Shown here in pieces: positions 1,921 through 43,728 of a stretch of DNA of 64,000 nt; within the stretch, counting starts at the first letter, position 1; every line of letters starts with the position of its first letter. The stretch is from Bacteroidota bacterium (GTDB taxonomy: Bacteria > Bacteroidota > Ignavibacteria > Palsa-1295), in the NCBI GenBank assembly GCA_030706745.1, contig JAUZNX010000006.1, positions 140,998 through 204,997 on the forward strand. Reading direction: 5' to 3'. The notes under the pieces are model-generated. The model was not told the DNA's origin. It saw only the letters and a program-made list of their open reading frames with translations, and ran no database searches. A program made the position numbers and the translations under genes.

Positions 1921-3753
1921 ATGAAGCTCTTATTACGCTATCTTCGCGGATACCGCAAGCTCGTCCTACTGACGCTTGGCTTGGCGGCGGTCAATACACT
2001 GTTTTCGCTCGTCGATCCAATGATCTTCGCGCGGATTCTGGATAATTACGTCAAAAAGTTCGAGGCGCTCTCCTCCTCCGAATTCTTTGGGGGCGTGGGA
2101 CCGCTGATCCTGCTCATGATGGGCGCCGCGTTTGTCTCGCGAGTGGCCAAGAATTTTCAGGACTATTATACCAACGTCCTGACGCAGCGGCTCGGAGTCC
2201 AGATCTATAGCGAAGGCGTCGAGCATTCGCTCAAGCTGCCGTATCAGGTTTTCGAAGACCAACGAAGCGGTGAGACACTCGGGAAATTGCAGAAAGTTCG
2301 AACAGATACCGAGAAGGTTATCCAATCTGCAGTTGGCTTTGTGTTCACGACGCTCATCGGCGTTCTGTTCGTCATTGGCTATTCATTCTATGTTCACTGG
2401 AGCATTGTTCCGGCCTACTTCTTCGGAATGGCGGTGATCGGTTACATGAGTTGGGTACTCGGAAAGAAGATCAAGGCCATCCAAAAGAAGATTGTAACTC
2501 AGACAACCGCGCTTGCCGGATCCACGACAGAATCGCTCCGCAATATCGAGCTTGTCAAGAGTCTTGGACTTGCCGATCAGGAAATCCGCCGGTTGAACTC
2601 GACGACGGACAAGATTCTGCAGCTCGAACTTCAAAAGGTGAAGTATATCCGGCGCCTTAGCTTCCTGCAAGGGACTGTTGTGAACGGTCTGCGCAATGGC
2701 ATTCTGTTCCTCATGCTGTTTCTCGTGTTCACCCACGCGATCACGTATGGGCAGTTTTTCGCGCTGTACATTTATTCGTTCTTCATTTTCAGTCCGCTGC
2801 AGGAGCTTGGAAATATCATCAATACATTCCGAGAAGCCGAAGCATCACTTAGCATATTCGAAGACTTGCTGAAAATGCCAATCGAGAAAAAGCCGGAGAA
2901 GCCCGCAGCAATCGGCACGATTCAGAGTCTGGCATTCGACGAAGTCTCCTTCAAGCATCTCTCTTCCTCCAACTTCGCGCTCTCCAATATATCGTTTGAG
3001 ACTCGGCGGGGTGAGACCATTGCATTCGTCGGACCATCCGGAGCTGGCAAGACCACGCTGGTGAAGCTACTCGTCGGACTGTATCCACCGCAGGCAGGTC
3101 GAATCCTTTACAATGGAATTTCCGGGACGGATATCGACTTCGACGAACTCCGCGAGCGGATGGGAATGGTCACGCAGGATACGCAGCTCTTCAGCGGGAC
3201 CATCCGCGAGAACCTCAGATTCGTCCGGCCTGATGCGACGGATGCCGAGTGCATGGACGTGCTACAAAAAGCTTCCTGTCAAGGTCTGCTTGCCCGCGCG
3301 CCGGAGGGATTAGACACGGTGATCGGCGAAGGCGGCGTAAAAGTCTCAGGTGGTGAAAAGCAGCGACTCTCTATTGCGCGCGCCTTGCTCCGACAGCCGA
3401 ACCTGCTTGTGTTTGACGAGGCGACGTCTTCGCTCGATTCACTGACCGAAGAAGAGATCACGGAGACGATTCGCGAGGTTTCGAGCCGGACCGATCTCAT
3501 TACCGTCATGATCGCACACCGGCTTTCGACCATCATGCATGCCGACCGGATCTTCGTGCTCGAACGAGGCCAGATCGTCGAGTCGGGCCATCACGCCGAC
3601 TTGCTCGCGCTCAAAGGACTTTACTATGCCATGTGGCGTCAGCAGATTGGGGAGAGACATGCCCTCCATCCTGCGGGTGCGACTGTGACAGGTAATGGCA
3701 AGTTAATTACCGCGACTGGACGAGTCGAGCCGGTTAGCGCTGTTGCCCGCTAA
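1921..3753 (+). CDS. ABC transporter, fused permease/ATP-binding protein (MsbA/exporter type)
   Basis: N-terminal TM region, Walker A GPSGAGKTT, ABC signature LSGGEKQRLSIARAL, Walker B LLVFDEATSSLD. ATG at 1921. Confidence 0.9.
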   Translation: MKLLLRYLRGYRKLVLLTLGLAAVNTLFSLVDPMIFARILDNYVKKFEALSSSEFFGGVGPLILLMMGAAFVSRVAKNFQDYYTNVLTQRLGVQIYSEGVEHSLKLPYQVFEDQRSGETLGKLQKVRTDTEKVIQSAVGFVFTTLIGVLFVIGYSFYVHWSIVPAYFFGMAVIGYMSWVLGKKIKAIQKKIVTQTTALAGSTTESLRNIELVKSLGLADQEIRRLNSTTDKILQLELQKVKYIRRLSFLQGTVVNGLRNGILFLMLFLVFTHAITYGQFFALYIYSFFIFSPLQELGNIINTFREAEASLSIFEDLLKMPIEKKPEKPAAIGTIQSLAFDEVSFKHLSSSNFALSNISFETRRGETIAFVGPSGAGKTTLVKLLVGLYPPQAGRILYNGISGTDIDFDELRERMGMVTQDTQLFSGTIRENLRFVRPDATDAECMDVLQKASCQGLLARAPEGLDTVIGEGGVKVSGGEKQRLSIARALLRQPNLLVFDEATSSLDSLTEEEITETIREVSSRTDLITVMIAHRLSTIMHADRIFVLERGQIVESGHHADLLALKGLYYAMWRQQIGERHALHPAGATVTGNGKLITATGRVEPVSAVAR

Positions 3754-5808: not shown

Positions 5809-6327
5809 TTACCAAAGGATGGCCATGGAAACAGAAAGGCCAACAATGGCCTGCGCCACAAGCGCATCGCGGGCGATCAAGGCCGATCGAGGTCGGAGAA
5901 GCCCAATGGGTGTCCAGTACGCCCAGCTAATTTGATGGCTCTGCAGGCCATTATAGACCCTGTTCTCCCATGAGCCATGCGAAGGAGGATTGAGCGCATA
6001 AGCCCAACCATAATATCCGAGATCGTCGCCCCAGGTCCACCAAATTAGATTGAATGCGATCGCCGAACTCAGACCACATGTCTTGTACAAAAAATATGTG
6101 ATCGCGGCCTGCGCCACGCTCTGAATGCCATGATAGACCCACGCAATATTGTGCAACTGCCGGACATCGAGATTGAAGCCGACATAATCGAGCAATGAAA
6201 ACGCAAGTGACGAGCCAATTACATATTCGATCCGTTGCACGCGCAAGCGATCCTGGGCTCGGGTGCTGGAAGCAAGGAGCAGAAGGCAAATAGCCATGAG
6301 AAGAAAGAGGCGCAGACAATTCACCAA
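5809..6327 (-). CDS. Small secreted/membrane protein, paralog 1 of a tandem array of four (unknown family; WWTWGDDLGYYGW motif; C-terminal ...SMAILW)
   Basis: Signal-peptide-like N-terminus then AQD. About 75% identical to paralog 4. TTG start inferred. Confidence 0.6.
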   Translation of the reverse strand: MVNCLRLFLLMAICLLLLASSTRAQDRLRVQRIEYVIGSSLAFSLLDYVGFNLDVRQLHNIAWVYHGIQSVAQAAITYFLYKTCGLSSAIAFNLIWWTWGDDLGYYGWAYALNPPSHGSWENRVYNGLQSHQISWAYWTPIGLLRPRSALIARDALVAQAIVGLSVSMAILW

Positions 6328-6851
6328 AGGAATGCCAATGAAATTGAAAACCCGACGATTGCCTGAGCAACAATCGTGCTCCGTGCGATGGAACTTCCTT
6401 TTGGTCGCACCATTCCAATTGGTGTCCAGGATGCCCAGCTGATTTCGGGATTATTCCGCAAGCCGTTATCGGTCCGATTGAGCCATGGCGATGGCAAATT
6501 AAGCGCATCAGCCCAACCATAAAATGCCAGATCATCTCCCCATGTCCACCAAGTCAAATCGAAGGCGAGTGCCGCAGGCAGGCCGCAGGTCCGATACAGA
6601 AAATAATTAATGGCCACACCAAGAGAACTTTGCAGAATATGATAGACCATCAACCCCGAACTTCCGTTATCAAAGTTGAAGACGGTTCGTCCGCCGCTAT
6701 ATGCAAGAAAATCGAACAATGAAAATGCCGCCGTCGCGCCAATCACATATTCGAACCGTTGCGCACGCAAGCTATCCTGGGCTCGCACCACCTGGCCCGA
6801 GGCAATTCCAACGAGGAGAACACTAAGAACCAATTGTCGAACGGTCACCAT
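6321..6851 (-). CDS. Small secreted/membrane protein, paralog 2 (start refined to the internal ATG giving MVTVRQLVLSVLLVGIASG...)
   Basis: Same conserved blocks: WWTWGDDLAFYGW, WTPIGMVRP, C-terminal ...LAFLW. Its start abuts the stop of paralog 3. Confidence 0.6.
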   Translation of the reverse strand: MVTVRQLVLSVLLVGIASGQVVRAQDSLRAQRFEYVIGATAAFSLFDFLAYSGGRTVFNFDNGSSGLMVYHILQSSLGVAINYFLYRTCGLPAALAFDLTWWTWGDDLAFYGWADALNLPSPWLNRTDNGLRNNPEISWASWTPIGMVRPKGSSIARSTIVAQAIVGFSISLAFLW

Positions 6852-7351
6852 AAGATACTCATGGAAAGTGCAAATCCGACCGCCGCCTGACCATACAACG
6901 CGTCGCGTGGGATGATGCTGTTGGGAGGCCTCATGAGCCCGATCGGAGTCCACCCTGCCCAGCGAATCGCATTATCACGCAAGTTATTATCGAGGTTTCG
7001 ATTCGGCCATGGAGCGGCCGGATTAATTCCGAGCTGATATCCATAAAAAGCGAGATCGTCGCCCCAGGTCCACCAGACAAGATTGAACGCGATTGCCGAG
7101 TTCAGACCACAGGTCTTATACAAGAAGTAGGAAATTGCCGCTTGTGCTACAAGTTGTAGACTCCGGTAGACCACTTTGCTATTACCCGGGTGATTGTAGA
7201 TGTCGAGATTCCAGCCCAGATAATCAGCAAGCGCAAACGTCAGTGAGGCACCGACGACATACTCGATCCGCTGAACACGCGTGCTATCCTGCGCCTGCAC
7301 GTCGGTCGCCAGAAGCATTGTGAGGACGACTGGTATGATGATCGTTCTCAT
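6845..7351 (-). CDS. Small secreted/membrane protein, paralog 3 (start refined to ATG giving MRTIIIPVVLTMLLATDVQAQD...)
   Basis: Same conserved blocks. ATG at 7349–7351 confirmed on the printed sequence. Confidence 0.6.
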   Translation of the reverse strand: MRTIIIPVVLTMLLATDVQAQDSTRVQRIEYVVGASLTFALADYLGWNLDIYNHPGNSKVVYRSLQLVAQAAISYFLYKTCGLNSAIAFNLVWWTWGDDLAFYGYQLGINPAAPWPNRNLDNNLRDNAIRWAGWTPIGLMRPPNSIIPRDALYGQAAVGFALSMSILW

Positions 7352-7356
7352 AGGCT

Positions 7357-7875
7357 TCACCAGAGAATTGCCATTGAAACGGAGAATCCAACCATCGCTT
7401 GCGCAATCAAAGCATCGCGGGCGATGAGGCTGCCTGGCGGGCGCAACACACCGATGGGTGTCCAACTGGCCCACGTAATGTGATTACTTCGAAGACCATT
7501 TCCCTCCCGGTTCTCCCAAACCCCAACGCTTTGCTTCCCGGGATTGAGCGCATTCGCCCAGCCATAATAACCGAGATCATCGCCCCATGTCCACCAAATC
7601 AAATTGAATGCGATCGTCGATGGTAAGCCAAATTTTTCGTAGAGTAAATAGCTCATTCCGGCCTGTACTGAGGATTCTATGAGTCGATACCATATCGGCG
7701 CGTGACCGTTTACATTATCGACGCGAGCGAGACTATACCCGACATAATCGGCAAGCGAGAATGCGACTGATGCGCCAATGACATATCCTAAACGTGCGAA
7801 GCGCGCACTATCCTGGGCCCGCGATGGCGAGCCGAAACACAAGAGAACGAGTAGGATAACTTCAAACGACCGCAT
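7357..7875 (-). CDS. Small secreted/membrane protein, paralog 4
   Basis: MRSFEVILLVLLCFGSPSRAQD signal, same conserved blocks, C-terminal ...SMAILW. Confidence 0.6.
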   Translation of the reverse strand: MRSFEVILLVLLCFGSPSRAQDSARFARLGYVIGASVAFSLADYVGYSLARVDNVNGHAPIWYRLIESSVQAGMSYLLYEKFGLPSTIAFNLIWWTWGDDLGYYGWANALNPGKQSVGVWENREGNGLRSNHITWASWTPIGVLRPPGSLIARDALIAQAMVGFSVSMAILW

Positions 7876-23048: not shown

Positions 23049-23194
23049 TAGTGGATAGTTGATAGTGGGTAGTGGACAGTTGAAATGCACAGAGTGGAGA
23101 TTGATCGATGAGAAGCGGATGCTGCCAATAGTATGGGCACTATCCATTTTCCTCTATTCACTATCCACTATTATCTACCCACTATCATCTACTG
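23048..23194. repeat. Long imperfect inverted repeat built from GTGGATAGT-type units (hairpin), copy 1
   Basis: Left arm gtagtggatagttgatagtgggtagtggacagttg pairs with right arm cactatccactattatctacccactatcatctactg. Related in sequence to 41350–41466. Confidence 0.7.
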
Positions 23195-34379: not shown

Positions 34380-34762
34380 CTAATTATATACTTTAGCTCA
34401 TTTTGTGTATAAGCTTATTATTCTTTCACATCACATTCATCATTACGGAAGAGCCCCCCTTCCATCTATTACAACGTTGTTCGACCCATCCGGCATCGCA
34501 TATTTTCGATGAATTCTGCAAATAATCGTTGGGACCAATCGACAAGCTCCCGCCGGTCCCCGCCTCGGAGAGGCGGCGCTGTGTAGCGCGGCGCGGAAGC
34601 GCCGTGAAGCGCCACCCCGCCGCGCCGGGCGCTCCACCACCACCCGCCCAACACACCCGCACTCCCGCCGTGCGTGGGGAAGTGCCCGCTTCTACGCTCC
34701 AGAAATTCCTGCATGCGCAGCTTTTTGCCGTAAGTTTGCTATGACTGTACGAAAGGAGAATC

Positions 34763-36652
34763 ATGTACCTCTCTAATATTAAGCTCTGGAATTTCCGAAA
34801 GTACGGACGCGCGGGTCAAGAGTCAACGCTCGATCTTCGGAACCCCCACTTGAGTCTCGACTTCTCGAATGGGCTCAATGTTCTGATCGGTGAGAACGAC
34901 TCGGGGAAATCAGCTATCATTGATGCAATTAAGCTCACGCTCAAGACGCAAAGCTACGAGTGGTTGAGAATTGAGCGAGAGGATTTTTTCAATGACTCCG
35001 CCAAGCTGAGAATAGAATTAGAGTTCGACGGTTTTAAGGACATCGAAGCAAAGAACTTTACTAAATGGTTAGGATGGAAAGAGAAGACTACCGAGACCGG
35101 GTCTAAGGAGAAGGTGCCATACTTGCGCTTGGTTTACGAGGTACAGCGCAAACTGGAGGAGGGAAGAATATTACCATCTGACGTGAGGGCTGGCGTCGAT
35201 GACGAGTGTTATCTTCTCGATGCCGGCGCAAAAGAATACCTGAAAGTCACTTACCTCAAGCCATTGCGCGATGCCGAGAGCGACTTGACCCCAAAGAGGA
35301 ATTCAAGACTGTCACAAATTCTTGCGAGCCACGAGGCTTTTAAGGGCAAAGAAACAACTCATTTTTTGGTCCGTCTTTTCGAGAGATTCAATGATTCCAT
35401 CCTTGGATATTTTGAAGGCGTGGACGTTGGGACTGACGGTAGCGAAGCGCCATCCCAGGATCAAGAAGGTAAGAAGCTGAAGGACAAAGTCGATAGTCTG
35501 CTCAGTGAGATGTACGATGAATCGAAAGAATCTAACTTTGATGTAACTTCGAAGAAGGAAGTAAAGGAGATTCTTGAGAAGCTCGAGTTGAGCTTGAAAA
35601 ATGACTTGAACCCTGGGCTCGGCACCCTGAACCGACTTTTTGTTTCTTCTGAATTGCTTCACCTTGAGAAGAAGGATTGGACTGGGCTACGCCTCGGCCT
35701 CATCGAAGAACTCGAAGCTCACCTTCATCCTCAGGCTCAAATGCGTATCATTGCGGCACTCCGAGAGATAAGCGGTACTCAACTGATTCTCACCACGCAC
35801 AGTCCGAATATTGGTTCAAAGGTCAAGTTAAAAGAATTGATCTTGTGTAGTGGCGACAATGTCTTTCCGATGAAGGATGGTTGCACCAGACTCAAAAGCC
35901 CCGACTACACATTTCTTGAGAGATTTCTCGACGCAACGAAAGCAAATCTATTTTTCGCGAAAGGAGTCATCCTTGTCGAAGGGTGGGCAGAGGAAATTCT
36001 GATTCCGGCTCTCGCCAAGGCCATTGATTGCGACCTTACGAAGAAGGGTGTTTCCGTCGTTAATGTCGGGAACCTCGCCTTCTTGCGATATTCCAGCATC
36101 TTTCAAAGGCAGGCTCCTCCCCCCATGGAGATGCCTGTGGCCGTCGTAACCGACCTCGACATTATGCCTGAGGATGAAGGTGCTGACGCAGAAAGTAAAA
36201 CAACAACCAAGAAGGCGAAGTACGATGGCGTACCAGTAAAAACATTCGTCTCCCCGCATTGGACCTTGGAGTACTGTATTGCAAGATCGACTAAACTCCG
36301 AAGGACATTCTACAAGGCAATCTTGGAGGCATTGCGTGAGAAAAAGGAGGATGAAGGAATGAGCGAGACCGGATTGGCAGAATATGTCACGGCAATTACG
36401 AATATAGACGTGCACTTCAATGGTTGGAGTAAGAGTGAAGCTGAGATAGCCAGTTCGATCTATTCTCAAATTTTGGGAGAAGCCAAGGTGCTGGAATTGG
36501 CCAGGGGCAAGATTTCGAAGACTATCATTGCCCAGCATTTCGCCAAGCTCCTGGATGAAGGGGCAGTTGCGAAGACTGATATCGAGACCGACACTAATAT
36601 TTCTTATCTCATCGATGCCATAAAGTATGCCTGCCGCGTTAGTAGTCACTAA
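34763..36652 (+). CDS. gajA: OLD-family ATP-dependent endonuclease, Gabija GajA-like (ABC-type ATPase + TOPRIM)
   Basis: N-terminal IKLWNFRKY...GENDSGKSAIIDAI (Walker A), LIEELEAHLHPQAQ (Walker B/H-loop), TOPRIM GVILVEGWAEEILIPALA. Strong SD AAAGGAGA before ATG 34763. GC lower than its surroundings. Confidence 0.8.
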   Translation: MYLSNIKLWNFRKYGRAGQESTLDLRNPHLSLDFSNGLNVLIGENDSGKSAIIDAIKLTLKTQSYEWLRIEREDFFNDSAKLRIELEFDGFKDIEAKNFTKWLGWKEKTTETGSKEKVPYLRLVYEVQRKLEEGRILPSDVRAGVDDECYLLDAGAKEYLKVTYLKPLRDAESDLTPKRNSRLSQILASHEAFKGKETTHFLVRLFERFNDSILGYFEGVDVGTDGSEAPSQDQEGKKLKDKVDSLLSEMYDESKESNFDVTSKKEVKEILEKLELSLKNDLNPGLGTLNRLFVSSELLHLEKKDWTGLRLGLIEELEAHLHPQAQMRIIAALREISGTQLILTTHSPNIGSKVKLKELILCSGDNVFPMKDGCTRLKSPDYTFLERFLDATKANLFFAKGVILVEGWAEEILIPALAKAIDCDLTKKGVSVVNVGNLAFLRYSSIFQRQAPPPMEMPVAVVTDLDIMPEDEGADAESKTTTKKAKYDGVPVKTFVSPHWTLEYCIARSTKLRRTFYKAILEALREKKEDEGMSETGLAEYVTAITNIDVHFNGWSKSEAEIASSIYSQILGEAKVLELARGKISKTIIAQHFAKLLDEGAVAKTDIETDTNISYLIDAIKYACRVSSH

Positions 36653-38651
36653 CGGTGACATCGAATACGCCGAGGGTATTCTGTTGCCCGCCGGCATGAC
36701 GTTCGATGATGAACGTCGGGCCTTCATTCGCAATTTTGAAACCATAGACCTTCAGGCCGTTCCAGGAAGTGGCAAGACAACAGCGCTCCTTGCCAAACTG
36801 CTGATTATCGAGAAGCATCTGCCTCTGAATGACGGATCTGGGGTCCTGGTACTTTCGCACACAAACGCAGCAGTGGATGAGATCAAGAATGCAATTGGCA
36901 TCCACTGTCCGAAGCTATTCGCGTATCCTAACTACGTCGGCACAATACAGAGCTTCACAGATAAATTCCTTGCAATACCCTACGGACACAACTGTCTCGG
37001 AGTTAGATTTGACCGTGTCGATTCAGAAGCTTTTTCGGAGAGGCTTTGGAAGAACTTCCGTCTCGTGCAACAACGCGAAGATTTCGGAAGTCTCGGGAAG
37101 TGGTTCTATGGCATGCACATTGCGACCGCGAAAGAAATCGCCGGAGAGAATAAGCCAGAGGTTAGGCGCCTCTGCAATGCGTTGATCGAAGCGCACGTGA
37201 AAAATATTCGTTACGACTACAACGAGGAATGCTTTAGGAATGGGATTGATGGTAAAGCGCTCCTGAAGTCGAAGACCAATCCAAAATTTAATGCACTGCT
37301 GGCGATTACTCAAGAAACTTTCGCCGAGGGTTATCTTTCGTTTGATTACGCCTATATCCTTGCCAAGCATTATCTCATTCTTGTCCCTGAGCTTACCCCA
37401 ATTGTGAGAAAGCGATTCCCATACGTCTTCGTTGATGAGATGCAAGATATGGATCCCCACCAATACACCTTGTTAGAGACGCTTTTTGCACCTTCGGGGC
37501 CTCATCAACCCATTTATCAAAGGATCGGAGACAAGAACCAAGCGATATACGAGGGGCTTACCGGGGAGATTTGGCAGGATCGAGCGCCTGATCGAATACT
37601 CTCCCTAAAAGGGTCATATCGCTTGAGCAGTCAAGTCGCAAAAGTCGTGCAGCCATTCGCCCTCACTCCTATAGCAATAGATGGGCGGCGGGAGCTTCGT
37701 GTGCCAATTAAGCCTTGCTTGTTGGTTTATACCGAGCCTTCGCACGTGATTAATGAGTACATCCGAATTATCCGAACGCATGTCGACTCCGGGGCTATTC
37801 CATCCAATACAGCAAATGGGTTCCATGCAATCTGTTGGGTGACGAAAGAGAAAGAGACGGAAACGACACTCTCTAGATACTTTGCTGATTTCAAGCGTGT
37901 CAAACAAGAGTCAGGTTCAAATTATTATTGCCTTAGGGCTTACTTCGATGCGATGGATCCGGTAAGTCAGTGCGTGAGAGCAATACGTAGTCATCTCATC
38001 AACGCCATTCTGAAGGTGTTACGACTTGAAGATATACGCGATGAGAACAATAGATACTATACGCAAGCGCGCTTTCTTCGCCAATTGAATCAACTTGACC
38101 TCACGCGAGATACAAAATATTCGGACGAATTTAATTTTCAGCTCTTTCAATGGTGCAGTGCGGTGGCAAACGGGAAGACTACTGAGGCCCTGAGGGACCT
38201 GCGCATCTTCCTTCCTAATCTGTTGGGCTGGCTTGACAAGACTCTTACGAAAGCGGACGCGATCACATTTGTCAATGCAGACTCAGCATCGAGTCAATCG
38301 GTTGGGGAGAATACCTCCGAAAGTCGAGATGTAAACGTTGCCATCGAGCCATCGGGAGACATTAGGATTGAAGTGTCAAACGTTCACGCAGTAAAGGGAC
38401 ACACGCACACAGCAACGTTGTACATGGAGTCCTTTTACCAGAAAATGTATGAGTCATCCAGACTCCCCGGACCTTTCCTGAATGGCAGTGCTAAGATCAA
38501 AGGAACGTACCAGAATGAAACCGCAAGGTTGCTCTACGTAGGTTTCTCGCGTCCGACGCATCTGCTTTGCTTCGCGGTTCACAAGGAGCGATTTGAAGCT
38601 CATTTAAGTGCGATTGACAGAGATATTTGGGAAATCGTGGAGGTATCGTGA
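36627..38651 (+). CDS. gajB: UvrD-like superfamily-1 helicase, Gabija GajB-like. Alternative start ATG at 36696.
   Basis: Walker A AVPGSGKTTAL. Motif II VFVDEMQDMD. IGDKNQAIY, SYRLSSQV, VHAVKGHTHTATL, LYVGFSRPTHLL match the GajB/UvrD motif set. Overlaps gajA by 26 nt. Confidence 0.8.
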   Translation: MPAALVVTNGDIEYAEGILLPAGMTFDDERRAFIRNFETIDLQAVPGSGKTTALLAKLLIIEKHLPLNDGSGVLVLSHTNAAVDEIKNAIGIHCPKLFAYPNYVGTIQSFTDKFLAIPYGHNCLGVRFDRVDSEAFSERLWKNFRLVQQREDFGSLGKWFYGMHIATAKEIAGENKPEVRRLCNALIEAHVKNIRYDYNEECFRNGIDGKALLKSKTNPKFNALLAITQETFAEGYLSFDYAYILAKHYLILVPELTPIVRKRFPYVFVDEMQDMDPHQYTLLETLFAPSGPHQPIYQRIGDKNQAIYEGLTGEIWQDRAPDRILSLKGSYRLSSQVAKVVQPFALTPIAIDGRRELRVPIKPCLLVYTEPSHVINEYIRIIRTHVDSGAIPSNTANGFHAICWVTKEKETETTLSRYFADFKRVKQESGSNYYCLRAYFDAMDPVSQCVRAIRSHLINAILKVLRLEDIRDENNRYYTQARFLRQLNQLDLTRDTKYSDEFNFQLFQWCSAVANGKTTEALRDLRIFLPNLLGWLDKTLTKADAITFVNADSASSQSVGENTSESRDVNVAIEPSGDIRIEVSNVHAVKGHTHTATLYMESFYQKMYESSRLPGPFLNGSAKIKGTYQNETARLLYVGFSRPTHLLCFAVHKERFEAHLSAIDRDIWEIVEVS

Positions 38652-38660
38652 GGTGTGGGT

Positions 38661-38781
38661 AACTCGCGCTCAGGGTCGAGCGTCGCGGGGCTGGCGGGTC
38701 TTTGGAGCCTCAGCCATGCCCATGGTTGCTCATTGCAACGCTAGCAAACGAACAGGGTGGTGCTACCGGGAGTTCGGGCGC
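38661..38781. repeat. Direct repeat R1 (~120 nt) immediately after the gajB stop
   Basis: aactcgcgc..cgcggggctggcgggtctttggagcctcagccatgcc ... gctcattgcaacgctagcaaacgaacagggtggtgctaccgggagttcgggcgc repeated at 40398–40542. Confidence 0.85.
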
Positions 38782-38809
38782 GTGGAGGCAAGTAGGGTGT
38801 AGCTCGTCT

Positions 38810-40096
38810 CTACGTGATGCTTCCAGCGGGATAGAGCGCGGGAAAGATATACGGGACTGCTTTGATCGGAAAAGTTAGCCGAAGCGCGCCAAGCGGAGTG
38901 AGTGAAGTGACAAGTTCCAGTTTGGTGAGAGCCTGCGTAATTCTCCTTGCGGAGCGATCCGATGTACCAGTCAGCCTGGCTACCTCGCTTCGCGGAAGTT
39001 CTCCTCTTAAGAAAATCTCCGTAAGAAGATATTTCGCGCTCGTGTCGAGCACTCCTTGCAACGCAAGAAGTTCGACATATTGCGTAAGACGATCGAGCAT
39101 CGCGTTGGTCTCGAGCAGACCAGACATAAAGTTCACTTGATCGATTGCAACATCGAGCAAAAAATCGACGAAGTCATCCAGTCCGCGTTGCGAGAGATTG
39201 CCGCGTCCATCATAATTGTTGTAACGGGGTGCATCTGCGGCCTCCAGTGCTTTATAGTATTCCTCCCTTTTCCGCGCAATACCGCGGGAGAGCGACCACA
39301 GCCCATTACTATCCAGATCTGCCCTCATAAAATAGAGGTGCGTAAAAAGCCTGACAACCCGTCCATTCCCATCTAAGAAGGGATGGATCCACGCGAGTCG
39401 GTGATGTGCTGCAATAGCGGCGATAATTCTCTTCACGGAGCCGAGAGGAGTTGGAGAATAGACTTCGTGAAATCGCTCCATGAACTGAGGGATCGAGGAG
39501 TGCTGCGGCGGAACATGCTTGCCGACTTGCACATCATCCCGTCTAAATTTGCCTGGCACGACTTTCAGCACGTTGCCGGCAGTCGCACGGACTAATTTGA
39601 ATTCTTCCGGGAGCTTATCGTAAAAGCTTTTGTGCATGCTCAGGAGAAACTCCGGTGACGCAACATCGACATCTGAAGAATCTCGTAGCTCTCGCTCAAA
39701 CTGTTCCTGCACCTCGATATGTGCTCGCCCTTCAATCTGCAACGCCTTCTTGCGAGGCTCCGCAGAGTAATCGTTCTTTTGTGCGCGCTCGAGGTCCAAT
39801 GGATGCGTGACATTTCCCTCGATGAGATTGGAATAATAGCTATTCATCAGCCGAAGGAGCTGAGAGGTCTGACGCTGGGTGATGGGATGGAGTTTGCCCG
39901 AAAGCTGTTGCGATCGTTTGAGGAGTTCAACCGCTTTCTCTTCGAGACTTGGGCGGGCGGGCCACATCGGCTCCATTTGAGAGATTCCGCTGTACATGGG
40001 CATCACAGCCTTCCGGGCCACTGATTTCCCATTTAGCTTGGCACTTTTGGCCGACTTATTGGCCGACTTATTGGCCGACTTATTGGCCGACTTCAT
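38810..40096 (-). CDS. Fic family protein (Fic domain + C-terminal winged-helix) with a KSAN-repeat N-terminus encoded by a 12-nt tandem repeat. Alternative starts at internal Met residues (MPMYSG...).
   Basis: Fic motif HPFLDGNGRVVRL. ATG at 40096 confirmed. 428 aa. Confidence 0.8.
   Translation of the reverse strand: MKSANKSANKSANKSAKSAKLNGKSVARKAVMPMYSGISQMEPMWPARPSLEEKAVELLKRSQQLSGKLHPITQRQTSQLLRLMNSYYSNLIEGNVTHPLDLERAQKNDYSAEPRKKALQIEGRAHIEVQEQFERELRDSSDVDVASPEFLLSMHKSFYDKLPEEFKLVRATAGNVLKVVPGKFRRDDVQVGKHVPPQHSSIPQFMERFHEVYSPTPLGSVKRIIAAIAAHHRLAWIHPFLDGNGRVVRLFTHLYFMRADLDSNGLWSLSRGIARKREEYYKALEAADAPRYNNYDGRGNLSQRGLDDFVDFLLDVAIDQVNFMSGLLETNAMLDRLTQYVELLALQGVLDTSAKYLLTEIFLRGELPRSEVARLTGTSDRSARRITQALTKLELVTSLTPLGALRLTFPIKAVPYIFPALYPAGSIT
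40047..40093. repeat. 12-nt tandem repeat (TTGGCCGACTTA, about 4 copies) lying in-frame in the first codons of the Fic gene
   Basis: Read directly. Encodes (KSAN)n. Confidence 0.9.
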
Positions 40097-40232
40097 AATA
40101 AGTTATAATCCTCATAAATTAGCAAGATTAGCCGAATACGAACAGGAAACTTCAATCCCGGCAATCGAATTCCCGAGAAGTTGGACCGTTATTTTGGCCG
40201 AGTTGTGAGGTGGACCTTTGAGTGGATCTAAA

Positions 40233-40285
40233 GGACATAAACCATTGGAACTCTATTACGTTTGGCTTTGCCAAACGTAATAGAG
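40233..40285. repeat. Perfect palindrome: 25-bp stem with 3-nt loop (ccattggaactctattacgtttggc ttt gccaaacgtaatagagttccaatgg)
   Basis: Read directly, no mismatches. Confidence 0.9.
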
Positions 40286-40299
40286 TTCCAATGGTAGCA

Positions 40300-40335
40300 G
40301 AAGCACATGCAAGCGGCTGTTCGCTTAAGCGAACA
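40300..40335. repeat. Perfect 36-nt palindrome (gcaagcggctgttcgctt|aagcgaacagccgcttgc)
   Basis: Read directly, no mismatches. 14 nt downstream of the first palindrome. Confidence 0.9.
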
Positions 40336-40397
40336 GCCGCTTGCAGCAAAGTGATTCCAGCTTAGGGAATAGCGAAGAGTGAAACTTCTCAGTGTTC

Positions 40398-40542
40398 GCG
40401 TGGGCCGAACTCGCGCCCCGGGTCACATCGGCGCGGGGGCTGGCGGGTCTTTGGAGCCTCAGCCATGCCACCAATAGCATGATAGGTCATCCCTAATTGC
40501 TCATTGCAACGCTGGCAAACGAACAGGGTGGTGCTACCGGGA
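40398..40542. repeat. Direct repeat R2 (~145 nt, with an approximately 22-nt internal insertion relative to R1), 50 nt upstream of the AbrB-like gene
   Basis: Same sequence blocks as R1. Confidence 0.85.
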
Positions 40543-40591
40543 GTTCGGGCGCCTTCAACGAATGTGGTCTCGCTCGTGTTATGGAATCACT

Positions 40592-40810
40592 ATGGACCGC
40601 ATTGATTTTGAAGGCACGGTAGAGGGCGATGGCATCATCCGCATCCCCGCTGAGTATAAGCGCGAGCTTGTGAAGGGCGAGACGGTGCATGTATCGCTCT
40701 CCGTTGGTAAGCGCCGCACCCGCCTTGTCGATCGTATGATCAATCATCCCGTTCCCGTCGATGAGTTCACACCCTTGACGCGCGAAGAGATATACGACCG
40801 TACGATTTGA
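40592..40810 (+). CDS. AbrB/MazE/SpoVT-fold (swapped-hairpin) DNA-binding protein, orphan
   Basis: MDRIDFEGTVEGDGIIRIPAEYKRELVKGETVHVSL resembles the AbrB/MazE N-terminal domain. About 72 aa from the internal ATG. Confidence 0.55.
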   Translation: MDRIDFEGTVEGDGIIRIPAEYKRELVKGETVHVSLSVGKRRTRLVDRMINHPVPVDEFTPLTREEIYDRTI

Positions 40811-41081
40811 TCTTCCTCGACTCTACTCCGAAGACATGCAGAATGGCATGCGCATCCGCAATCGGATGACCGTTCGGAATCCGTTTGCGTAGTCCTGTGC
40901 GCTTCTGCGCGCAAGCTAAAGCATGCGCTACACTGGAATTATTGCGCCCAATCCCCCGTTTCCCGCCAGTTCAAAAAGTTTACATAACAGCTCCAACGAG
41001 GAGCAAGCTGTCCGGCGGCTTTGATAGCGCGAGGTTCCGGGCAGATGTTCAATTTCACGGCGCTATACGACATTACTTATA

Positions 41082-41349
<268 letters not shown>

Positions 41350-41351
<2 letters not shown>

Positions 41352-41466
41352 TGGATAGTTGATAGTGGAGAGTGGATAGTTCTACTCGTCTGCTATCTTC
41401 TTTGTGGCATGGCCGCATGAACGGCCCTGCACACTATCCACTTTCCACTATACACTATCCACTATA
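41350..41466 (+). promoter_or_regulatory. rpsO–pnp intergenic long hairpin (about 31-bp imperfect stem of GTGGATAGT-type units, about 54-nt loop containing a GGCCG/CGGCC sub-hairpin) ending at the pnp ATG
   Basis: Left arm agtggatagttgatagtggagagtggatagtt pairs with right arm cactatccactttccactatacactatccactata. Confidence 0.7.
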
Positions 41467-43728
41467 ATGAAATACGACGTACAGTACGGCAACGGCAAAT
41501 CGATGCAGTTCGATGTAGGCCGGTATGCCAAGCAATCGAACGGATCCGTGATGGTCCGTCTCGGCGACACGATGTCGCTGGTCAACGCAGTCGCCGCCGA
41601 AAAGGAAAAAGAAGGCATTGACTTTATGCCGCTGCAGGTAGAATTCCGCGAGCGCGCGGCTGCCGCCGGCAAGATTCCGGGAGGCTACTTCAAGCGCGAA
41701 GCCCGCCCAACCGAGAAAGAAATTCTCTCCGCCCGTCAGATCGATCGTCCGATCCGCCCGATGTTCCCGAAGGACTGGCGCGTCGAGACGCAGATCGTCG
41801 CGACCATCTTCTGTTCCGATCAGGAGCACGATGCCGACACGATCACCGCAACTGCGGCCTCGCTTGCGCTGCTCATCTCCGACATTCCATTCGAAGAGCC
41901 GGTCGCGGAAGTACGCATTGCACGCGTCAACGGCCAGATCATCATCGATCCGACCTACACCGAACTTCAAACGGCTGACTACGAGTTCGTCGTCGCCGGG
42001 ACGAAGGATTCGATCCTGATGGTTGAAGGCGAGTCGCACGAGATCAGCGAGACCGAGTTTATCGAAGCGCTCCGCGCCGGCTCGAACGCCGTTCGTGAAC
42101 TCTGCATCGGTCAGGAGCGCATCGTCAAAGAGTGTGGCCTCGCAAAGCCGAAGCGCATCAAGGACGAGCACATCATGGACCCGGCGCTCATCGCGCAGGT
42201 CGAAGCCCTTGCCGCGCCAAAGCTGCGCGAGCTTGCCAAGACTGTGCTCGCAAAGGAAGAACGCTCACTGCAAACGCACTCGGCCCGTGACGCAACACGC
42301 AAGGCACTCACCGAGACTGTCGGCGAGTTGCAGTTCGAGCACATCCGCGGCGATGTCGATCATATCCTGTATGACATCGAGAAGCGTGAGATGCGTAATA
42401 TGATCCTGGATAACAACCATCGTCTCGATGGACGTAACTCCACGCAAATTCGTCCGATCGAGTGCGAAGTTGCCGTTCTGCCACGCGTGCATGGCTCTGC
42501 TGTCTTCCAACGCGGTGAGACGCAATCGCTGACAAGCTGCACGCTTGGCACCAAGCGCGACGAGCAGAACATCGAGGGTCTCTTCCCCGAGACGACCAAG
42601 CGGTTCATGCTGCATTACAATTTCCCGCCGTATTCCGTCGGTGAGGTTGGACGTTACAGCGGAACCGGTCGCCGCGAAATCGGCCACGGCAATCTCGCCG
42701 AGCGCGCGATCAAGTTGCTGCTTCCGACCGTCGAAGAATTTCCATATACGCTCCGTATCGTGAGCGATATTCTCGAAAGCAACGGATCGAGTTCCATGGC
42801 GACGGTTTGCGCCGGCACGCTGGCACTCTTCGATGCTGGTGTACCGCTGAAGAAGCCCGTGAGCGGCATTGCGATGGGCCTCATCAAGGAAGGTGATCGC
42901 GTCGCGATCCTTTCGGACATTCTCGGTAACGAGGATCATCTTGGCGACATGGACTTCAAAGTCTGCGGCACGCGTGATGGTATCACCGCCTGCCAGATGG
43001 ATATGAAGATCAAGGGCATCGACTTCGATCTGCTCGAGAAGGCGCTGATGCAAGCGCGCGATGGCCGCTTGCACATTCTCGGCAAGATGGCGGAGGCTCT
43101 CTCGGGACCGAAATCCGAGCTCTCGCAATACGCGCCGCGTCTCACGACAGTCAAGGTGCCGGTCGATTGTATCGGACTCGTCATCGGACCTGGTGGCAAG
43201 ACGATCCGCCAGATTCAGGCCGATGCTGGCGTCGAGATCAACATCGAGGAAGATGGAACGGTCACGATCGCTGCGCTTTCGGGCGAGGCGTCGGATCGCG
43301 CAAAGCAGTTTATTATGGCGCTCGTCGCGGAGCCGGAAGAAGGCGGGACCTACTCCGGTCGCGTCACCCAGGTCCGCGAAGGACTGGGTGCGATCGTCGA
43401 ATTCCTTCCCAAGAAGGAAGGCTTGCTCCATATTTCGGAGATCGATTACCAGCGCGTCGAGAACGTCTCGGATGTCATCCAGGTGGGTGATGTCTTTGAC
43501 GTAAAGCTCATCGCTGTCAAGCCCGACGGCAAGTTCTCGCTGTCGCGCAAGGCGTTGCTTCCGGTACCGGAAGGCTACGAGGAGCGTCCACGTGAGCGCC
43601 GCGAAGGCGGCGGCGACCGCGGTGGTTACGGCGACCGACGCGGTGGCGGCGATCGTCGTGGCGGCGGAGATCGCGGCGGCGACCGGCGCAATGGAGGTGG
43701 CGGCGGATTCCGCGACCGAAGGAATTAA
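41467..43728 (+). CDS. pnp: Polyribonucleotide nucleotidyltransferase (PNPase) with RGG/RGD-rich C-terminal tail
   Basis: Two RNase PH domains, KH and S1 domains. ATG 41467 confirmed. Tail ...GGGDRGGYGDRRGGGDRRGGGDRGGDRRNGGGGGFRDRRN. Confidence 0.95.
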   Translation: MKYDVQYGNGKSMQFDVGRYAKQSNGSVMVRLGDTMSLVNAVAAEKEKEGIDFMPLQVEFRERAAAAGKIPGGYFKREARPTEKEILSARQIDRPIRPMFPKDWRVETQIVATIFCSDQEHDADTITATAASLALLISDIPFEEPVAEVRIARVNGQIIIDPTYTELQTADYEFVVAGTKDSILMVEGESHEISETEFIEALRAGSNAVRELCIGQERIVKECGLAKPKRIKDEHIMDPALIAQVEALAAPKLRELAKTVLAKEERSLQTHSARDATRKALTETVGELQFEHIRGDVDHILYDIEKREMRNMILDNNHRLDGRNSTQIRPIECEVAVLPRVHGSAVFQRGETQSLTSCTLGTKRDEQNIEGLFPETTKRFMLHYNFPPYSVGEVGRYSGTGRREIGHGNLAERAIKLLLPTVEEFPYTLRIVSDILESNGSSSMATVCAGTLALFDAGVPLKKPVSGIAMGLIKEGDRVAILSDILGNEDHLGDMDFKVCGTRDGITACQMDMKIKGIDFDLLEKALMQARDGRLHILGKMAEALSGPKSELSQYAPRLTTVKVPVDCIGLVIGPGGKTIRQIQADAGVEINIEEDGTVTIAALSGEASDRAKQFIMALVAEPEEGGTYSGRVTQVREGLGAIVEFLPKKEGLLHISEIDYQRVENVSDVIQVGDVFDVKLIAVKPDGKFSLSRKALLPVPEGYEERPRERREGGGDRGGYGDRRGGGDRRGGGDRGGDRRNGGGGGFRDRRN

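What the first reader, a model, noticed from the sequence alone, without database searches (positions are those of the whole stretch)
38661..40542. Fic gene cassette bracketed by ~120–145-nt direct repeats immediately downstream of Gabija
R1 (38661–38781) starts within 10 nt of the gajB stop. R2 (40398–40542) ends 50 nt before an AbrB-fold gene. Between them lie only the minus-strand Fic gene, its 12-nt tandem repeat and two perfect palindromes. The repeats share long identical blocks (ggggctggcgggtctttggagcctcagccatgcc and gctcattgcaacgct.gcaaacgaacagggtggtgctaccgggagttcgggcgc) with a single 22-nt indel, and neither copy keeps an ORF. Three readings are possible. (a) They are attL/attR-like scars of a site-specific insertion of the Fic cassette into the leader of the AbrB-like gene. 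(b) They are a repeated promoter/terminator unit, in which case R1 would drive antisense transcription across Fic. (c) They are a novel small RNA present in two copies.
Basis: seen in the sequence. Interest (0 to 1): 0.7.

Follow-up and report, generated by a model that had tools for sequence, protein, structure and literature searches.

The report
Orphan gene-tail repeats flanking Fic
The two ~130-160-nt repeats around the Fic defence gene are left-over copies of the conserved tail of a small "four-helix-bundle" gene that normally sits beside rpsO at a defence-gene hotspot, so they record recombination at that hotspot and are not a Fic insertion scar or a known small RNA.

Summary
The repeats are real. 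R1 is 38653-38781 and R2 is 40394-40552. They share a 34-nt block (100%) and a 56-nt block (98%) around a centre of 5 nt in R1 and 27 nt in R2. There are only two copies in 64 kb.

R is the 3' module of a "four-helix-bundle suffix" gene (4HBS; TIGR04258, 23S-rRNA-IVP/Avd-like), read on the minus strand. It comprises the last ~6 codons, the stop codon and ~100-130 nt of conserved non-coding sequence. Related Kapaibacteria carry an intact 4HBS gene with one R directly after its stop codon (nhmmer E 1e-14 to 1e-15), next to rpsO or next to pyrD.

The ECF-sigma to rpsO interval is a defence hotspot with changing cargo: Gabija, SoFic and VapB/ΔVapC here; PDC-S31 or a TIR-like gene elsewhere. In this genome the 4HBS ORF is gone and two orphan tails remain.

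R2 is the positional orthologue and R1 a paralogue. Their cores are near identical (89/91) but their outer arms are old (25/41), a mosaic typical of recombination or gene conversion.

R evolves more slowly than synonymous sites, so it is probably functional in its native context. It has no Rfam match, no stable fold and no covariation. Interest is moderate.

The parts
38653..38781 (-). R1: orphan copy of the 4HBS 3' module (paralogous copy). Its outer end is truncated at the gajB stop codon.
   Evidence: Direct repeat with R2. nhmmer against the sequence downstream of 4HBS in L043 gives E 1.8e-15 and in L041 E 4e-14. BLAST 38653-38781 = L041rc 2427-2541. CM hit 127.6 bits.
38763..38792 (-). 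Relic of the last ~10 codons plus the stop codon of a 4HBS ORF (minus strand: ...LLASTRPNSR*). 38763-38781 lies inside R1 and 38782-38792 is R1's right flank.
   Evidence: 25/27 nt match to the 3' end of the L005 4HBS gene (...RLATRANSR*) (0 of 300 shuffles reach the score). The closest 4HBS proteins end in RANSR. Extension further into the CDS is not significant.
38721..38725 (.). Centre of R1 (CATGG), resembling the CATG found at this position in L041.
   Evidence: Alignments.
38810..40096 (-). Fic-domain gene (SoFic-like single-gene defence candidate). Its stop codon lies 28 nt from R1.
   Evidence: Pfam Fic 3.8e-16. PADLOC SoFic 8.4e-36. Homologues sit in unrelated contexts without R.
40047..40093 (-). 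12-nt tandem repeat, coding (KSAN)x4 at the Fic N-terminus.
40241..40345 (.). Two perfect palindromes (40241-40295 and 40308-40345) between R2 and the Fic promoter region. The first scores as a minus-strand terminator.
40394..40552 (-). R2: orphan copy of the 4HBS 3' module (positional orthologue of the rpsO-side R). Its outer end is complete and it retains the stop plus ~6 codons (40534-40552).
   Evidence: BLAST 40394-40469 and 40510-40554 = L041rc 2421-2494 and 2499-2543. Its outer arm matches L041 at 35/41 but R1 at only 25/41. CM hit 125.6 bits.
40470..40496 (.). 27-nt centre specific to R2 (a derived insertion or replacement).
40592..40810 (+). 72-aa AbrB-like (unverified) putative VapB antitoxin. 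It occupies the place of the 4HBS ORF.
   Evidence: Called gene. No family match.
40808..40893 (+). Internally deleted PIN/VapC remnant (LIFLDST... fused out of frame to ...YSEDMQNGMRIRNRMTVRNPFA*).
   Evidence: Read from the sequence. No Pfam hit on the fragments. The assignment rests on general knowledge of PIN termini.
40916..41351 (+). Conserved right frame of the hotspot: rpsO upstream region and rpsO (41082-41351). In L041 and L005 this region abuts the 4HBS promoter.
   Evidence: 90% identity to L041rc 3149-3585. 88% identity to L005 from 40954.
34610..34682 (.). Conserved left-junction piece of the cargo slot, upstream of gajA.
   Evidence: 86% identity to L041rc 129-201, which there abuts the 224-aa cargo gene.
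34763..38651 (+). Gabija operon (gajA 34763-36652, gajB 36627-38651), the cargo between the left junction and R1.

Best explanation
R1 and R2 are two orphan copies of the 3' module of a 'four-helix-bundle suffix' gene (4HBS; TIGR04258 + TIGR02436, Pfam 23S_rRNA_IVP, the Avd-like fold family).

What the module is. It is read on the window's minus strand. It consists of the last ~6 codons and stop codon of the gene, followed by ~100-130 nt of conserved non-coding sequence. That sequence has two near-invariant arms and a centre of variable length.

Native context. In sister Kapaibacteria an intact 4HBS gene with a single R lies directly beside rpsO. It forms the fixed right edge of a cargo slot between the ECF-sigma gene and rpsO, and the content of that slot changes from genome to genome and is defence-related. 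A second 4HBS-R locus lies downstream of pyrD.

What happened here. The 4HBS ORF is no longer present. At R2, the positional orthologue, its place is taken by vapB-ΔvapC. At R1, a paralogous copy, its place is taken by the SoFic-like gene.

Inferred origin. The duplication arose by homology-driven recombination between 4HBS-R modules, the process that brought SoFic into the island. Later gene conversion or a crossover inside R homogenised the core.

Inferred function, weakly supported. In its native context R is a sequence-specific cis element at the 3' end of the 4HBS transcription unit, either a protein-binding site or a transcript-end signal. The orphan copies are relics. They could still act as a substrate for deleting or exchanging the Fic segment.
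For: Shown:
- Full-length R homologues start inside the last codons of 4HBS genes and run ~100-120 nt downstream. This holds in L041/L042 (beside rpsO) and in L043/L044 (beside pyrD): nhmmer E 4e-14 and 1.8e-15. A weaker copy follows the L045 4HBS gene (E 7.5e-5).
- The gene is TIGR04258 (3.5e-21).
- The closest relative, L005 (PNPase 93% identical), has obg, ECF sigma, rpsO and pnp in the same order but different cargo. It has a 4HBS gene whose last codons match the 3' end of R at 25/27 nt.
- The right frame of the window (40916-41350) is 90% identical to the sequence that abuts the 4HBS promoter in L041. The left-junction piece 34610-34682 is also shared. The 4HBS unit has therefore been replaced exactly at R2.
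- No 4HBS body is detectable in the window.
- The cargo genes are defence genes: GajA, GajB and SoFic here, PDC-S31 in L005, a TIR-like gene in L041.
- The non-coding part of R is 81-86% identical between lineages, against ~70% at four-fold degenerate sites of the adjacent CDS.
- R1 and R2 form a mosaic. The core is 89/91 identical and the outer arm 25/41 (Fisher p = 6e-8). R2's outer arm is closer to L041 (35/41) than to R1. R1 keeps the ancestral-like centre and more of the coding relic.
- R is not a widespread repeat.
Against: - Only four independent R sequences (plus one weak) could be collected.
- L005 has a 4HBS gene but only the first ~27 nt of R, and L046 has a 4HBS gene with no R. R is therefore dispensable for the gene.
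- The CDS relic beyond the last ~6-10 codons is not statistically supported, so 'ORF replaced' rests on position and flanking homology.
- The order of events (duplication, replacement, conversion) cannot be reconstructed.
- A 22-nt centre difference inside an otherwise identical core is awkward for a single gene-conversion tract.
- No experiment or expression data bear on function.
Confidence: 0.6

Rival explanations
1. R is a dedicated site-specific recombination site, attC/att-like. Defence cassettes would be inserted next to 4HBS-R by a recombinase encoded elsewhere, and R1 and R2 would be the sites bounding the SoFic cassette.
For: - R has conserved arms with a centre of variable length.
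- It has short terminal inverted repeats with AAC...GTT polarity: CGAACTC...GAGTTCG, 8 bp in R2.
- Homology among all lineages ends sharply right after GCGCGAGTT.
- Variable defence cargo begins just beyond R in three haplotypes.
- In L005 another 39-nt repeat pair brackets a minus-strand cargo gene at the same place.
Against: - No integrase was found in the interval or among 10 integrase-sized ORFs in the window.
- The core sites do not fit RYYYAAC/GTTRRRY.
- There is no attC-like long imperfect hairpin, and folding z-scores are about 0.
- In L041 the successive cargo genes are not separated by R copies.
- R is co-inherited with 4HBS at two different loci and down to 81% protein identity, as expected for a gene's own flank.
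- The R1/R2 mosaic is not what clean site-specific products look like.
Confidence: 0.12
2. R encodes a functional RNA, either a 3'-UTR-derived sRNA or a cis-regulatory RNA of the 4HBS transcript. It would be present here as two expressed orphan genes on the minus strand.
For: - The non-coding sequence is more conserved than synonymous sites.
- Its position immediately after a stop codon is typical of 3'-UTR elements.
- The related Avd proteins are known, from general knowledge, to work with RNA that starts at the 3' end of avd.
Against: - There is no Rfam match, even at E <= 10.
- MFE z-scores range from -1.5 to +0.6 on both strands in four sequences.
- RNAalifold finds 0 compensatory pairs, and the shuffle and slide controls show no covariation signal.
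- No terminator is predicted in R.
- The orphan copies lack an upstream gene or a predicted promoter.
Confidence: 0.1
3. R is a small non-autonomous mobile element (MITE-like) that inserted into the 3' end of 4HBS genes and elsewhere. R1 and R2 would be two independent insertions.
For: - R is 125-160 bp long with 6-8-bp terminal inverted repeats, GAACTC/GAGTTC.
- It supplies the last codons and the stop of the ORF, while more distant 4HBS proteins have different tails.
- In L041 and R2 a CGCGAAC heptamer recurs at both ends.
Against: - Only two copies occur in 64 kb, and none elsewhere in ~200 kb of related loci except directly after 4HBS.
- There are no true matches to R 20-mers in 185,579 species genomes or in JGI metagenomes; the only genome hits are two chance Streptomyces matches.
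- The inverted repeats are degenerate in R1 and L041.
- L045 has the post-stop part of R without the terminal repeat.
- No transposase is nearby.
Confidence: 0.08
4. R is a repeated promoter/terminator unit acting on the + strand. R2 would drive the AbrB-like gene and R1 would drive antisense transcription across Fic.
For: R2 ends 39 nt upstream of the AbrB-like start codon and R1 faces the 3' end of Fic.
Against: - No sigma-70-like promoter or terminator is predicted in R.
- By eye there is no Bacteroidota -33/-7 (TTTG / TAnnTTTG) pair, whereas the 4HBS promoter shows a clear TATTTTTG box.
Confidence: 0.1

Closest known systems
Core defence hotspots flanked by conserved genes (for example the cDHS of Pseudomonas aeruginosa, PMC10250203; E. 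coli defence-island hotspots, PMC10121019)
   Same: A slot between conserved housekeeping genes (ECF sigma/obg on one side, rpsO/pnp on the other). Its cargo differs between close relatives and is rich in defence systems (Gabija, SoFic, PDC-S31, a TIR-like gene). No mobility genes lie in the slot, and exchange is most simply explained by recombination in the conserved flanks.
   Different: Here one edge of the slot is not a housekeeping gene. It is a small, extremely conserved 4HBS gene with its own conserved non-coding tail. That tail is duplicated and orphaned inside the island, so it subdivides the island into sub-slots.
Integron attC sites / CALIN arrays (clusters of attC sites lacking an integrase)
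   Same: Direct repeats of ~60-140 nt bound single cargo genes. Their ends are conserved and their centre is variable, with AAC...GTT terminal inverted repeats. Two sites lie within 2 kb without an adjacent integrase, and the cargo is toxin-antitoxin and defence genes.
   Different: The core sites do not fit RYYYAAC/GTTRRRY. There is no long imperfect hairpin or extrahelical-base architecture and no stable fold. The element is the co-inherited tail of one particular gene, and its internal blocks are the best-conserved part, not the most variable.
23S-rRNA-IVP / Avd-type four-helix-bundle genes embedded in defence loci (cas loci: PMC3936711; DGR avd followed by the template repeat: PMC10053308 and general knowledge)
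   Same: A small four-helix-bundle gene sits among defence genes. As with avd and its template repeat (TR), a ~120-nt conserved element begins at the very 3' end of the gene, and a second copy of that element lies nearby.
   Different: There is no reverse transcriptase. The second copy is not inside a target ORF. R1 and R2 differ by one A/G plus indels, not by adenine-specific substitutions. The gene carries the TIGR04258 suffix domain, which has not been linked to DGRs.
attL/attR of integrative islands
   Same: Long direct repeats flank an inserted segment, and a single-copy state exists in relatives.
   Different: There is no integrase and no tRNA or tmRNA target. The single-copy state carries the 4HBS gene, not an empty gajB-R-vapB site. 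The copies are mosaics with old outer arms.

Membership tests
3' module of four-helix-bundle-suffix (TIGR04258) genes (family defined here) | Sequence homology to the segment that begins in the last ~6 codons of a 4HBS gene and runs ~100-130 nt downstream | tested here: met
   nhmmer R1 against L043 gives E 1.8e-15 and against L041 E 4e-14; R2 gives 2e-10. Family HMM and CM hits. Gene identity TIGR04258 at 3.5e-21.
3' module of four-helix-bundle-suffix (TIGR04258) genes (family defined here) | An intact 4HBS ORF immediately upstream (in the sense orientation) | tested here: not met
   No 4HBS coding sequence is detectable in the window (tblastn; nhmmer with whole units). Only the stop plus ~6-10 codons remain. 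The window copies are therefore orphans.
Integron attC / CALIN | Core sites R'' = RYYYAAC and R' = GTTRRRY | tested here: not met
   In sense orientation R'' is GCSCGAAC. R' is GTTCGGC (R2), GTTACCC (R1), GTGCCGC (L041) or GTTCGAG (L043). These were read, and the fourth base of R' is not a purine in most copies.
Integron attC / CALIN | A long imperfect hairpin (R and L boxes paired, extrahelical bases) giving a stable single-strand fold | tested here: not met
   Only 5-8 bp of terminal pairing. MFE z-scores range from -1.5 to +0.6 on both strands for four sequences.
Integron attC / CALIN | An integron integrase nearby, or at least two sites in an array | tested here: inconclusive
   The two sites are 1.7 kb apart. 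No tyrosine recombinase was found among the genes of the interval or among 10 integrase-sized ORFs of the window. The rest of the genome was not seen.
attL/attR of an integrative element | An integrase or recombinase encoded in or beside the bracketed segment | tested here: not met
   Only Fic lies between the repeats. The neighbouring genes are Gabija, a VapB-like gene, rpsO and pnp.
attL/attR of an integrative element | An empty site with one copy in relatives, and repeats that travel with the cargo | tested here: not met
   The single-copy loci carry 4HBS, not a gajB-R-vapB site. Fic homologues elsewhere have no R.
MITE-like element | Many dispersed copies with terminal inverted repeats and target-site duplications | tested here: not met
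   Two copies in 64 kb and none in related loci except after 4HBS. 20-mers are absent from the species-genome and metagenome collections apart from two chance Streptomyces hits. The inverted repeats are 5-8 bp and degenerate. No consistent target-site duplication. The whole source genome could not be read.
Structured non-coding RNA (any Rfam family, or a new one) | A match to a curated covariance model | tested here: not met
   No hit at gathering thresholds in the window and none on R at E <= 10.
Structured non-coding RNA (any Rfam family, or a new one) | A fold more stable than shuffles, with covarying base pairs | tested here: inconclusive
   z-scores are about 0. There are 0 compensatory pairs and the controls are flat. 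Only four distinct sequences were available, so power is low.
DGR template/variable repeat pair | A reverse transcriptase nearby, the variable repeat at the 3' end of a target ORF, and adenine-specific mismatches | tested here: not met
   No RT among the annotated neighbours. Both copies are intergenic. The core differs by one A/G plus indels.
Core-gene-flanked defence hotspot | Conserved flanking genes with cargo that varies between relatives | tested here: met
   The window, L005 and L041 share the sigma and/or rpsO frames with three different cargo sets.
Core-gene-flanked defence hotspot | Cargo enriched in defence systems | tested here: met
   PADLOC: GajA 2e-215, GajB 7e-201, SoFic 8e-36, PDC-S31 1.7e-46, TIR effector 1.2e-9.

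The most novel reading that the evidence does not exclude
4HBS-R modules are dedicated docking points for defence genes. R would be the cis site of an undescribed cassette-exchange mechanism. The mechanism would use either a recombinase acting in trans or the nucleic-acid-binding Avd-like 4HBS protein itself. It would be unrelated in sequence to integron attC/attI sites but analogous in logic, and it would explain why this extremely conserved small gene family is scattered through defence loci in many phyla.
Probability: 0.1. Interest if true: 0.8.

Novelty: new variant of a known kind. Interest (0 to 1): 0.45.

Why it matters
Four-helix-bundle (23S-rRNA-IVP/Avd-like) genes are among the most conserved and most widely scattered small genes of unknown function. 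The search here returned 8000 relatives, and the 120 best listed are at least 66% identical across phyla. They have been noted inside cas loci (PMC3936711).

Three results suggest what to examine next. The subfamily studied here carries a selectively constrained non-coding tail. The gene-plus-tail unit marks the edge of a defence-gene slot beside rpsO. Orphan tails subdivide the island in this genome.

If the tail proves to be a protein-binding or recombination site, it would link this enigmatic gene family to the assembly of defence islands. If it does not, the finding is still useful as a worked case of how direct repeats around a defence gene arise from recombination between copies of a conserved module and not from a transposon or integrase.

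Tried and rejected
1. Known RNA or tRNA target. Rfam at gathering thresholds and at E <= 10, and ARAGORN, found nothing on R. The only hits were spurious miRNA matches on the palindromes.
2. Generic repeat. A 20-mer from the 56-nt block found only two chance Streptomyces hits with no flank similarity in 185,579 species genomes. A 20-mer from the 34-nt block found 0 hits in JGI metagenomes. Plasmid and phage blastn found nothing, and a viral-contig scan found 0.
3. The motif CTACCGGGAGTTCGSGCGCG gave 28 metagenome hits. All are unrelated, mostly YREF(A/G)R coding sequence in high-GC genomes.
4. I suspected that in L005 the end and the start of R are contiguous, a circular permutation that would mark an empty site. 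Shuffle tests gave p of 0.2-0.5, so I dropped the idea.
5. A 4HBS coding relic beyond the last ~6-10 codons next to R1 or R2 is not significant, and the controls score equally well.
6. Similarity between R and the L005 repeat pair X1/X2 is not significant apart from the 27-nt motif.
7. Coding potential of R. All six frames are interrupted, there is no Pfam match, and the centre indels are not multiples of three.
8. Integrase search. None was found among the interval genes or 10 mid-size ORFs.
9. More 4HBS loci from viral contigs and plasmids. Only one distant hit came from each, with no R found next to the viral-contig hit (the plasmid hit's flanks were not fetched).
10. DGR reading (an Avd-like gene followed by a TR-like repeat). 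Rejected: there is no RT, no target ORF and no adenine-specific pattern.
11. AbrB fold of the downstream gene. It could not be verified by sequence.
Full report
**1. The observation**

The window contains two direct repeats on the + strand around the minus-strand Fic gene (38810-40096).
- A 34-nt block is identical in both copies (38687-38720 = 40436-40469).
- A 56-nt block differs at one base (38726-38781 = 40497-40552).
- The blocks are separated by 5 nt in R1 and 27 nt in R2, and are preceded by a weaker ~28-nt left arm.
- Each block occurs exactly twice in 64 kb, with none expected in shuffles. blastn with short words and nhmmer find no third copy.

- R2's coordinates are 10 nt off at the right end.
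- The 12-nt tandem repeat is part of the Fic ORF, encoding (KSAN)x4.
- The distance from R2 to the downstream gene is 39 nt.
- The AbrB fold of that gene could not be verified. A broken PIN gene follows it.

**2. Context**

The window comes from a Kapaibacteria-like MAG, GCA_030706525.1, contig JAUZOI010000007.1. The gene order is:
- obg, a 133-aa gene and an ECF sigma factor, all on the minus strand;
- gajA and gajB (PADLOC E 2e-215 and 7e-201);
- R1;
- Fic (PADLOC SoFic 8e-36);
- two perfect palindromes;
- R2;
- a 72-aa VapB-like gene and a PIN remnant;
- rpsO and pnp.

There is no tRNA, no Rfam family and no integrase in or near the interval.

**3. R is not a common repeat**

- Exact 20-mers from the two blocks are absent from 185,579 species genomes, apart from two chance Streptomyces hits, and from the JGI metagenome collection.
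- Plasmid, phage and viral-contig searches are empty.
- A 20-mer shared with a relative gave 28 metagenome hits. All are unrelated, mostly coding sequence for a YREF(A/G)R peptide in high-GC genomes.

**4. The orthologous locus is polymorphic**

The closest relative found is L005 (GCA_017882165.1), with PNPase 93% identical. It has the same obg/ECF-sigma and rpsO/pnp frames. Between them it carries a DUF2971 gene (PADLOC PDC-S31, 1.7e-46), a 224-aa gene and a 186-aa gene. Homology to the window stops near 34444-34480 and resumes at 40954.

The only island sequence shared with L005 is a 27-nt stretch (25/27 identical). In the window it covers the right end of R1 plus 6 nt of flank. In L005 it covers the last codons and stop codon of the 186-aa gene on the minus strand.

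**5. Identity of R**

The 186-aa gene is a 'four helix bundle suffix domain' protein: TIGR04258 at 3.5e-21, TIGR02436, Pfam 23S_rRNA_IVP. I call it 4HBS. The family is very large and conserved. The search returned 8000 relatives, and the 120 best listed are at least 66% identical across phyla. The three closest members all end in ...RANSR*, while more distant ones have other tails.

Contigs carrying the two closest homologues settle the question.
- In L041/L042 the order is rpsO, 4HBS, R, a 145-aa gene, a 310-aa TIR-like gene, then a 224-aa gene.
- In L043/L044 the order is pyrD, 4HBS, R, a 334-aa gene, then a 186-aa gene.
- In both, a full-length homologue of R begins inside the last ~6 codons of 4HBS and continues ~100-120 nt downstream: nhmmer E 4e-14 and 1.8e-15.
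- A weaker copy follows the 4HBS gene of L045, also next to pyrD (E 7.5e-5).
- L046 has a 4HBS gene without R.

R is therefore the 3' module of this gene, read on the window's minus strand. The window itself holds no 4HBS coding sequence. Only the stop codon and ~6 codons (R2) or ~10 codons (R1) survive, and anything further is not significant.

**6. Anatomy and constraint**

In sense orientation the module reads as follows:
- GCGCSCGAACTCCCGGTAG, the coding tail with the stop codon;
- a conserved post-stop block, CCACCNTGTTCG...;
- a centre that varies from 0 to about 35 extra nt;
- a near-invariant block, GGCATGGCTGA..CTCCAAAGACCCGCC...CCCCGCG;
- an outer arm ending in GACCYNGAGCGCGAGTT, after which all lineages diverge.

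The non-coding part is 81-86% identical between lineages, while four-fold degenerate sites of the adjacent CDS are ~70% identical. That points to purifying selection.

The constraint looks sequence-specific and not structural.
- MFE z-scores lie between -1.5 and +0.6 on both strands.
- RNAalifold finds no compensatory pair on either strand, and the pair-count controls are flat.
- A covariance model finds only the four known copies in 204 kb.
- With only four sequences, the structural tests have little power.

The 5' side of the gene is also strongly conserved. It has palindromic TCTATAGA repeats and a Bacteroidota-type -7 box, TATTTTTG. The conserved unit is thus ~0.75 kb.

**7. What happened in this genome**

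- The window's right frame (40916-41350) is 90% identical to the sequence that abuts the 4HBS promoter in L041.
- R2, including its outermost bases, aligns with L041's R.
- A left-junction piece upstream of gajA (34610-34682) matches the far end of L041's cargo.

So R2 is the positional orthologue of the rpsO-side R. The 4HBS promoter and ORF have been replaced by vapB-ΔvapC, and Gabija occupies the cargo slot.

R1 is a second copy. Where the ORF should be stands the SoFic-like gene, whose stop codon is 28 nt from R1.

The two copies are a mosaic.
- Their core is 89/91 identical, but the outer arm is only 25/41 (Fisher p = 6e-8).
- In the outer arm R2 is closer to L041 (35/41) than to R1.
- R1 keeps the ancestral-looking centre and more of the coding relic. 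R2 keeps the complete outer end and has a derived 27-nt centre.

Neither copy is simply a copy of the other. I infer two R alleles of different age or origin whose cores were homogenised by gene conversion, or by a crossover inside R, when the Fic segment was recombined in. Fic did not bring R as its own att site: homologues at 69-71% nucleotide identity (72-74% protein identity) sit in four unrelated contexts without R.

**8. Mechanism, with levels of support**

Shown:
- R is homologous to the 4HBS tail.
- The interval is a polymorphic defence slot.
- The 4HBS gene is absent here.
- R evolves more slowly than synonymous sites.
- R1 and R2 form a mosaic.

Inferred, moderate support:
- The duplication arose by homologous recombination between 4HBS-R modules.
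- The orphan copies are relics that can still mediate deletion or exchange of the Fic segment.

Inferred, weak support:
- In its native setting R is a sequence-specific cis element at the 3' end of the 4HBS unit.

The rivals are each weaker, for the reasons given in their entries: a site-specific attC-like site, an RNA gene, a MITE, and a + strand promoter/terminator unit. The attC-like reading is the most interesting of these. It keeps some probability for four reasons: the arms are conserved and the centre is variable; the termini have AAC...GTT polarity; the homology break after GAGTT is sharp; and L005 has an analogous 39-nt repeat pair around a cargo gene at the same place.

**9. Comparison with known systems**

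The locus behaves like a core-gene-flanked defence hotspot (PMC10250203, PMC10121019). The unusual feature is that a small conserved gene with a constrained tail forms the edge and, in orphaned form, an internal divider.

It fails the defining tests for integron attC sites, for attL/attR of an integrative element, for MITEs and for DGR repeat pairs. It matches no Rfam family.

Four-helix-bundle (IVP) genes have been reported inside cas loci (PMC3936711). I found no paper on the suffix-domain subfamily or on a conserved element downstream of it.

**10. Verdict**

The repeats are orphan copies of an undescribed conserved gene tail at a defence hotspot. Interest is moderate: the mechanism that produced them is probably ordinary recombination, but the element and its link to an enigmatic, very widespread gene family are new and testable.

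Noticed in passing
window 5809-7875 (minus strand): Four tandem ~520-bp paralogous units (copies starting near 5987, 6496, 7020 and 7541; 67-83% identical) give a row of ORFs of 172-210 aa. Their function was not examined (families D1/D2).
   Followed up: no
window 41351-41468 and 23138-23188: The rpsO-pnp intergenic region holds a 37-nt CACTATCCACT-type repeat (41432-41468) with an inverted partner at 41351-41381, probably the pnp leader hairpin. An 89%-identical copy of the 37-mer, itself tandemly repeated, lies at 23138-23188 far from pnp (family D4).
   Followed up: no
L041 480-545, L043 700-770, L005 9366-9440, L045 3935-4003, L046 680-742: All five 4HBS genes share a highly conserved upstream region. 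It has three or four palindromic TCTATAGA / ATTCTATAGAAT repeats, then a Bacteroidota-type -7 box (TATTTTTG) about 10 nt before the ATG. It looks like an operator array.
   Followed up: partly
window 40808-40893: A PIN/VapC remnant. An N-terminal LIFLDST... is fused out of frame to a C-terminal ...YSEDMQNGMRIRNRMTVRNPFA*, so the toxin of the VapB-like/VapC pair is internally deleted while the antitoxin-like ORF is intact.
   Followed up: partly
L005 7964-8002 and 8764-8802: A 39-nt direct repeat (79% identical) brackets the minus-strand 224-aa cargo gene in the sister genome, at the position equivalent to R1/Fic/R2. The second copy abuts the truncated R motif. It has no significant similarity to R.
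   Followed up: partly
L041 1250-2634: The third haplotype of the rpsO slot carries a 145-aa gene plus a 310-aa gene with a TIR-like or nucleoside-deoxyribosyltransferase-like domain (PADLOC TIR effector 1.2e-9; Pfam Nuc_deoxyrib_tr 6e-7). This may be an unclassified two-gene defence system.
   Followed up: partly
L041 vs L005 4HBS CDS: The 4HBS proteins are 97% identical, yet four-fold degenerate sites are only 72% identical. This indicates very strong purifying selection on a protein of unknown function.
   Followed up: no
window 34426-34764 (minus) and 34520-34700: The GC-rich 300-nt stretch upstream of gajA contains a 112-aa ORF with no family match. Part of it (34610-34682) is conserved in L041 at the other end of that genome's cargo. 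It is probably a non-coding junction sequence and not a gene.
   Followed up: partly
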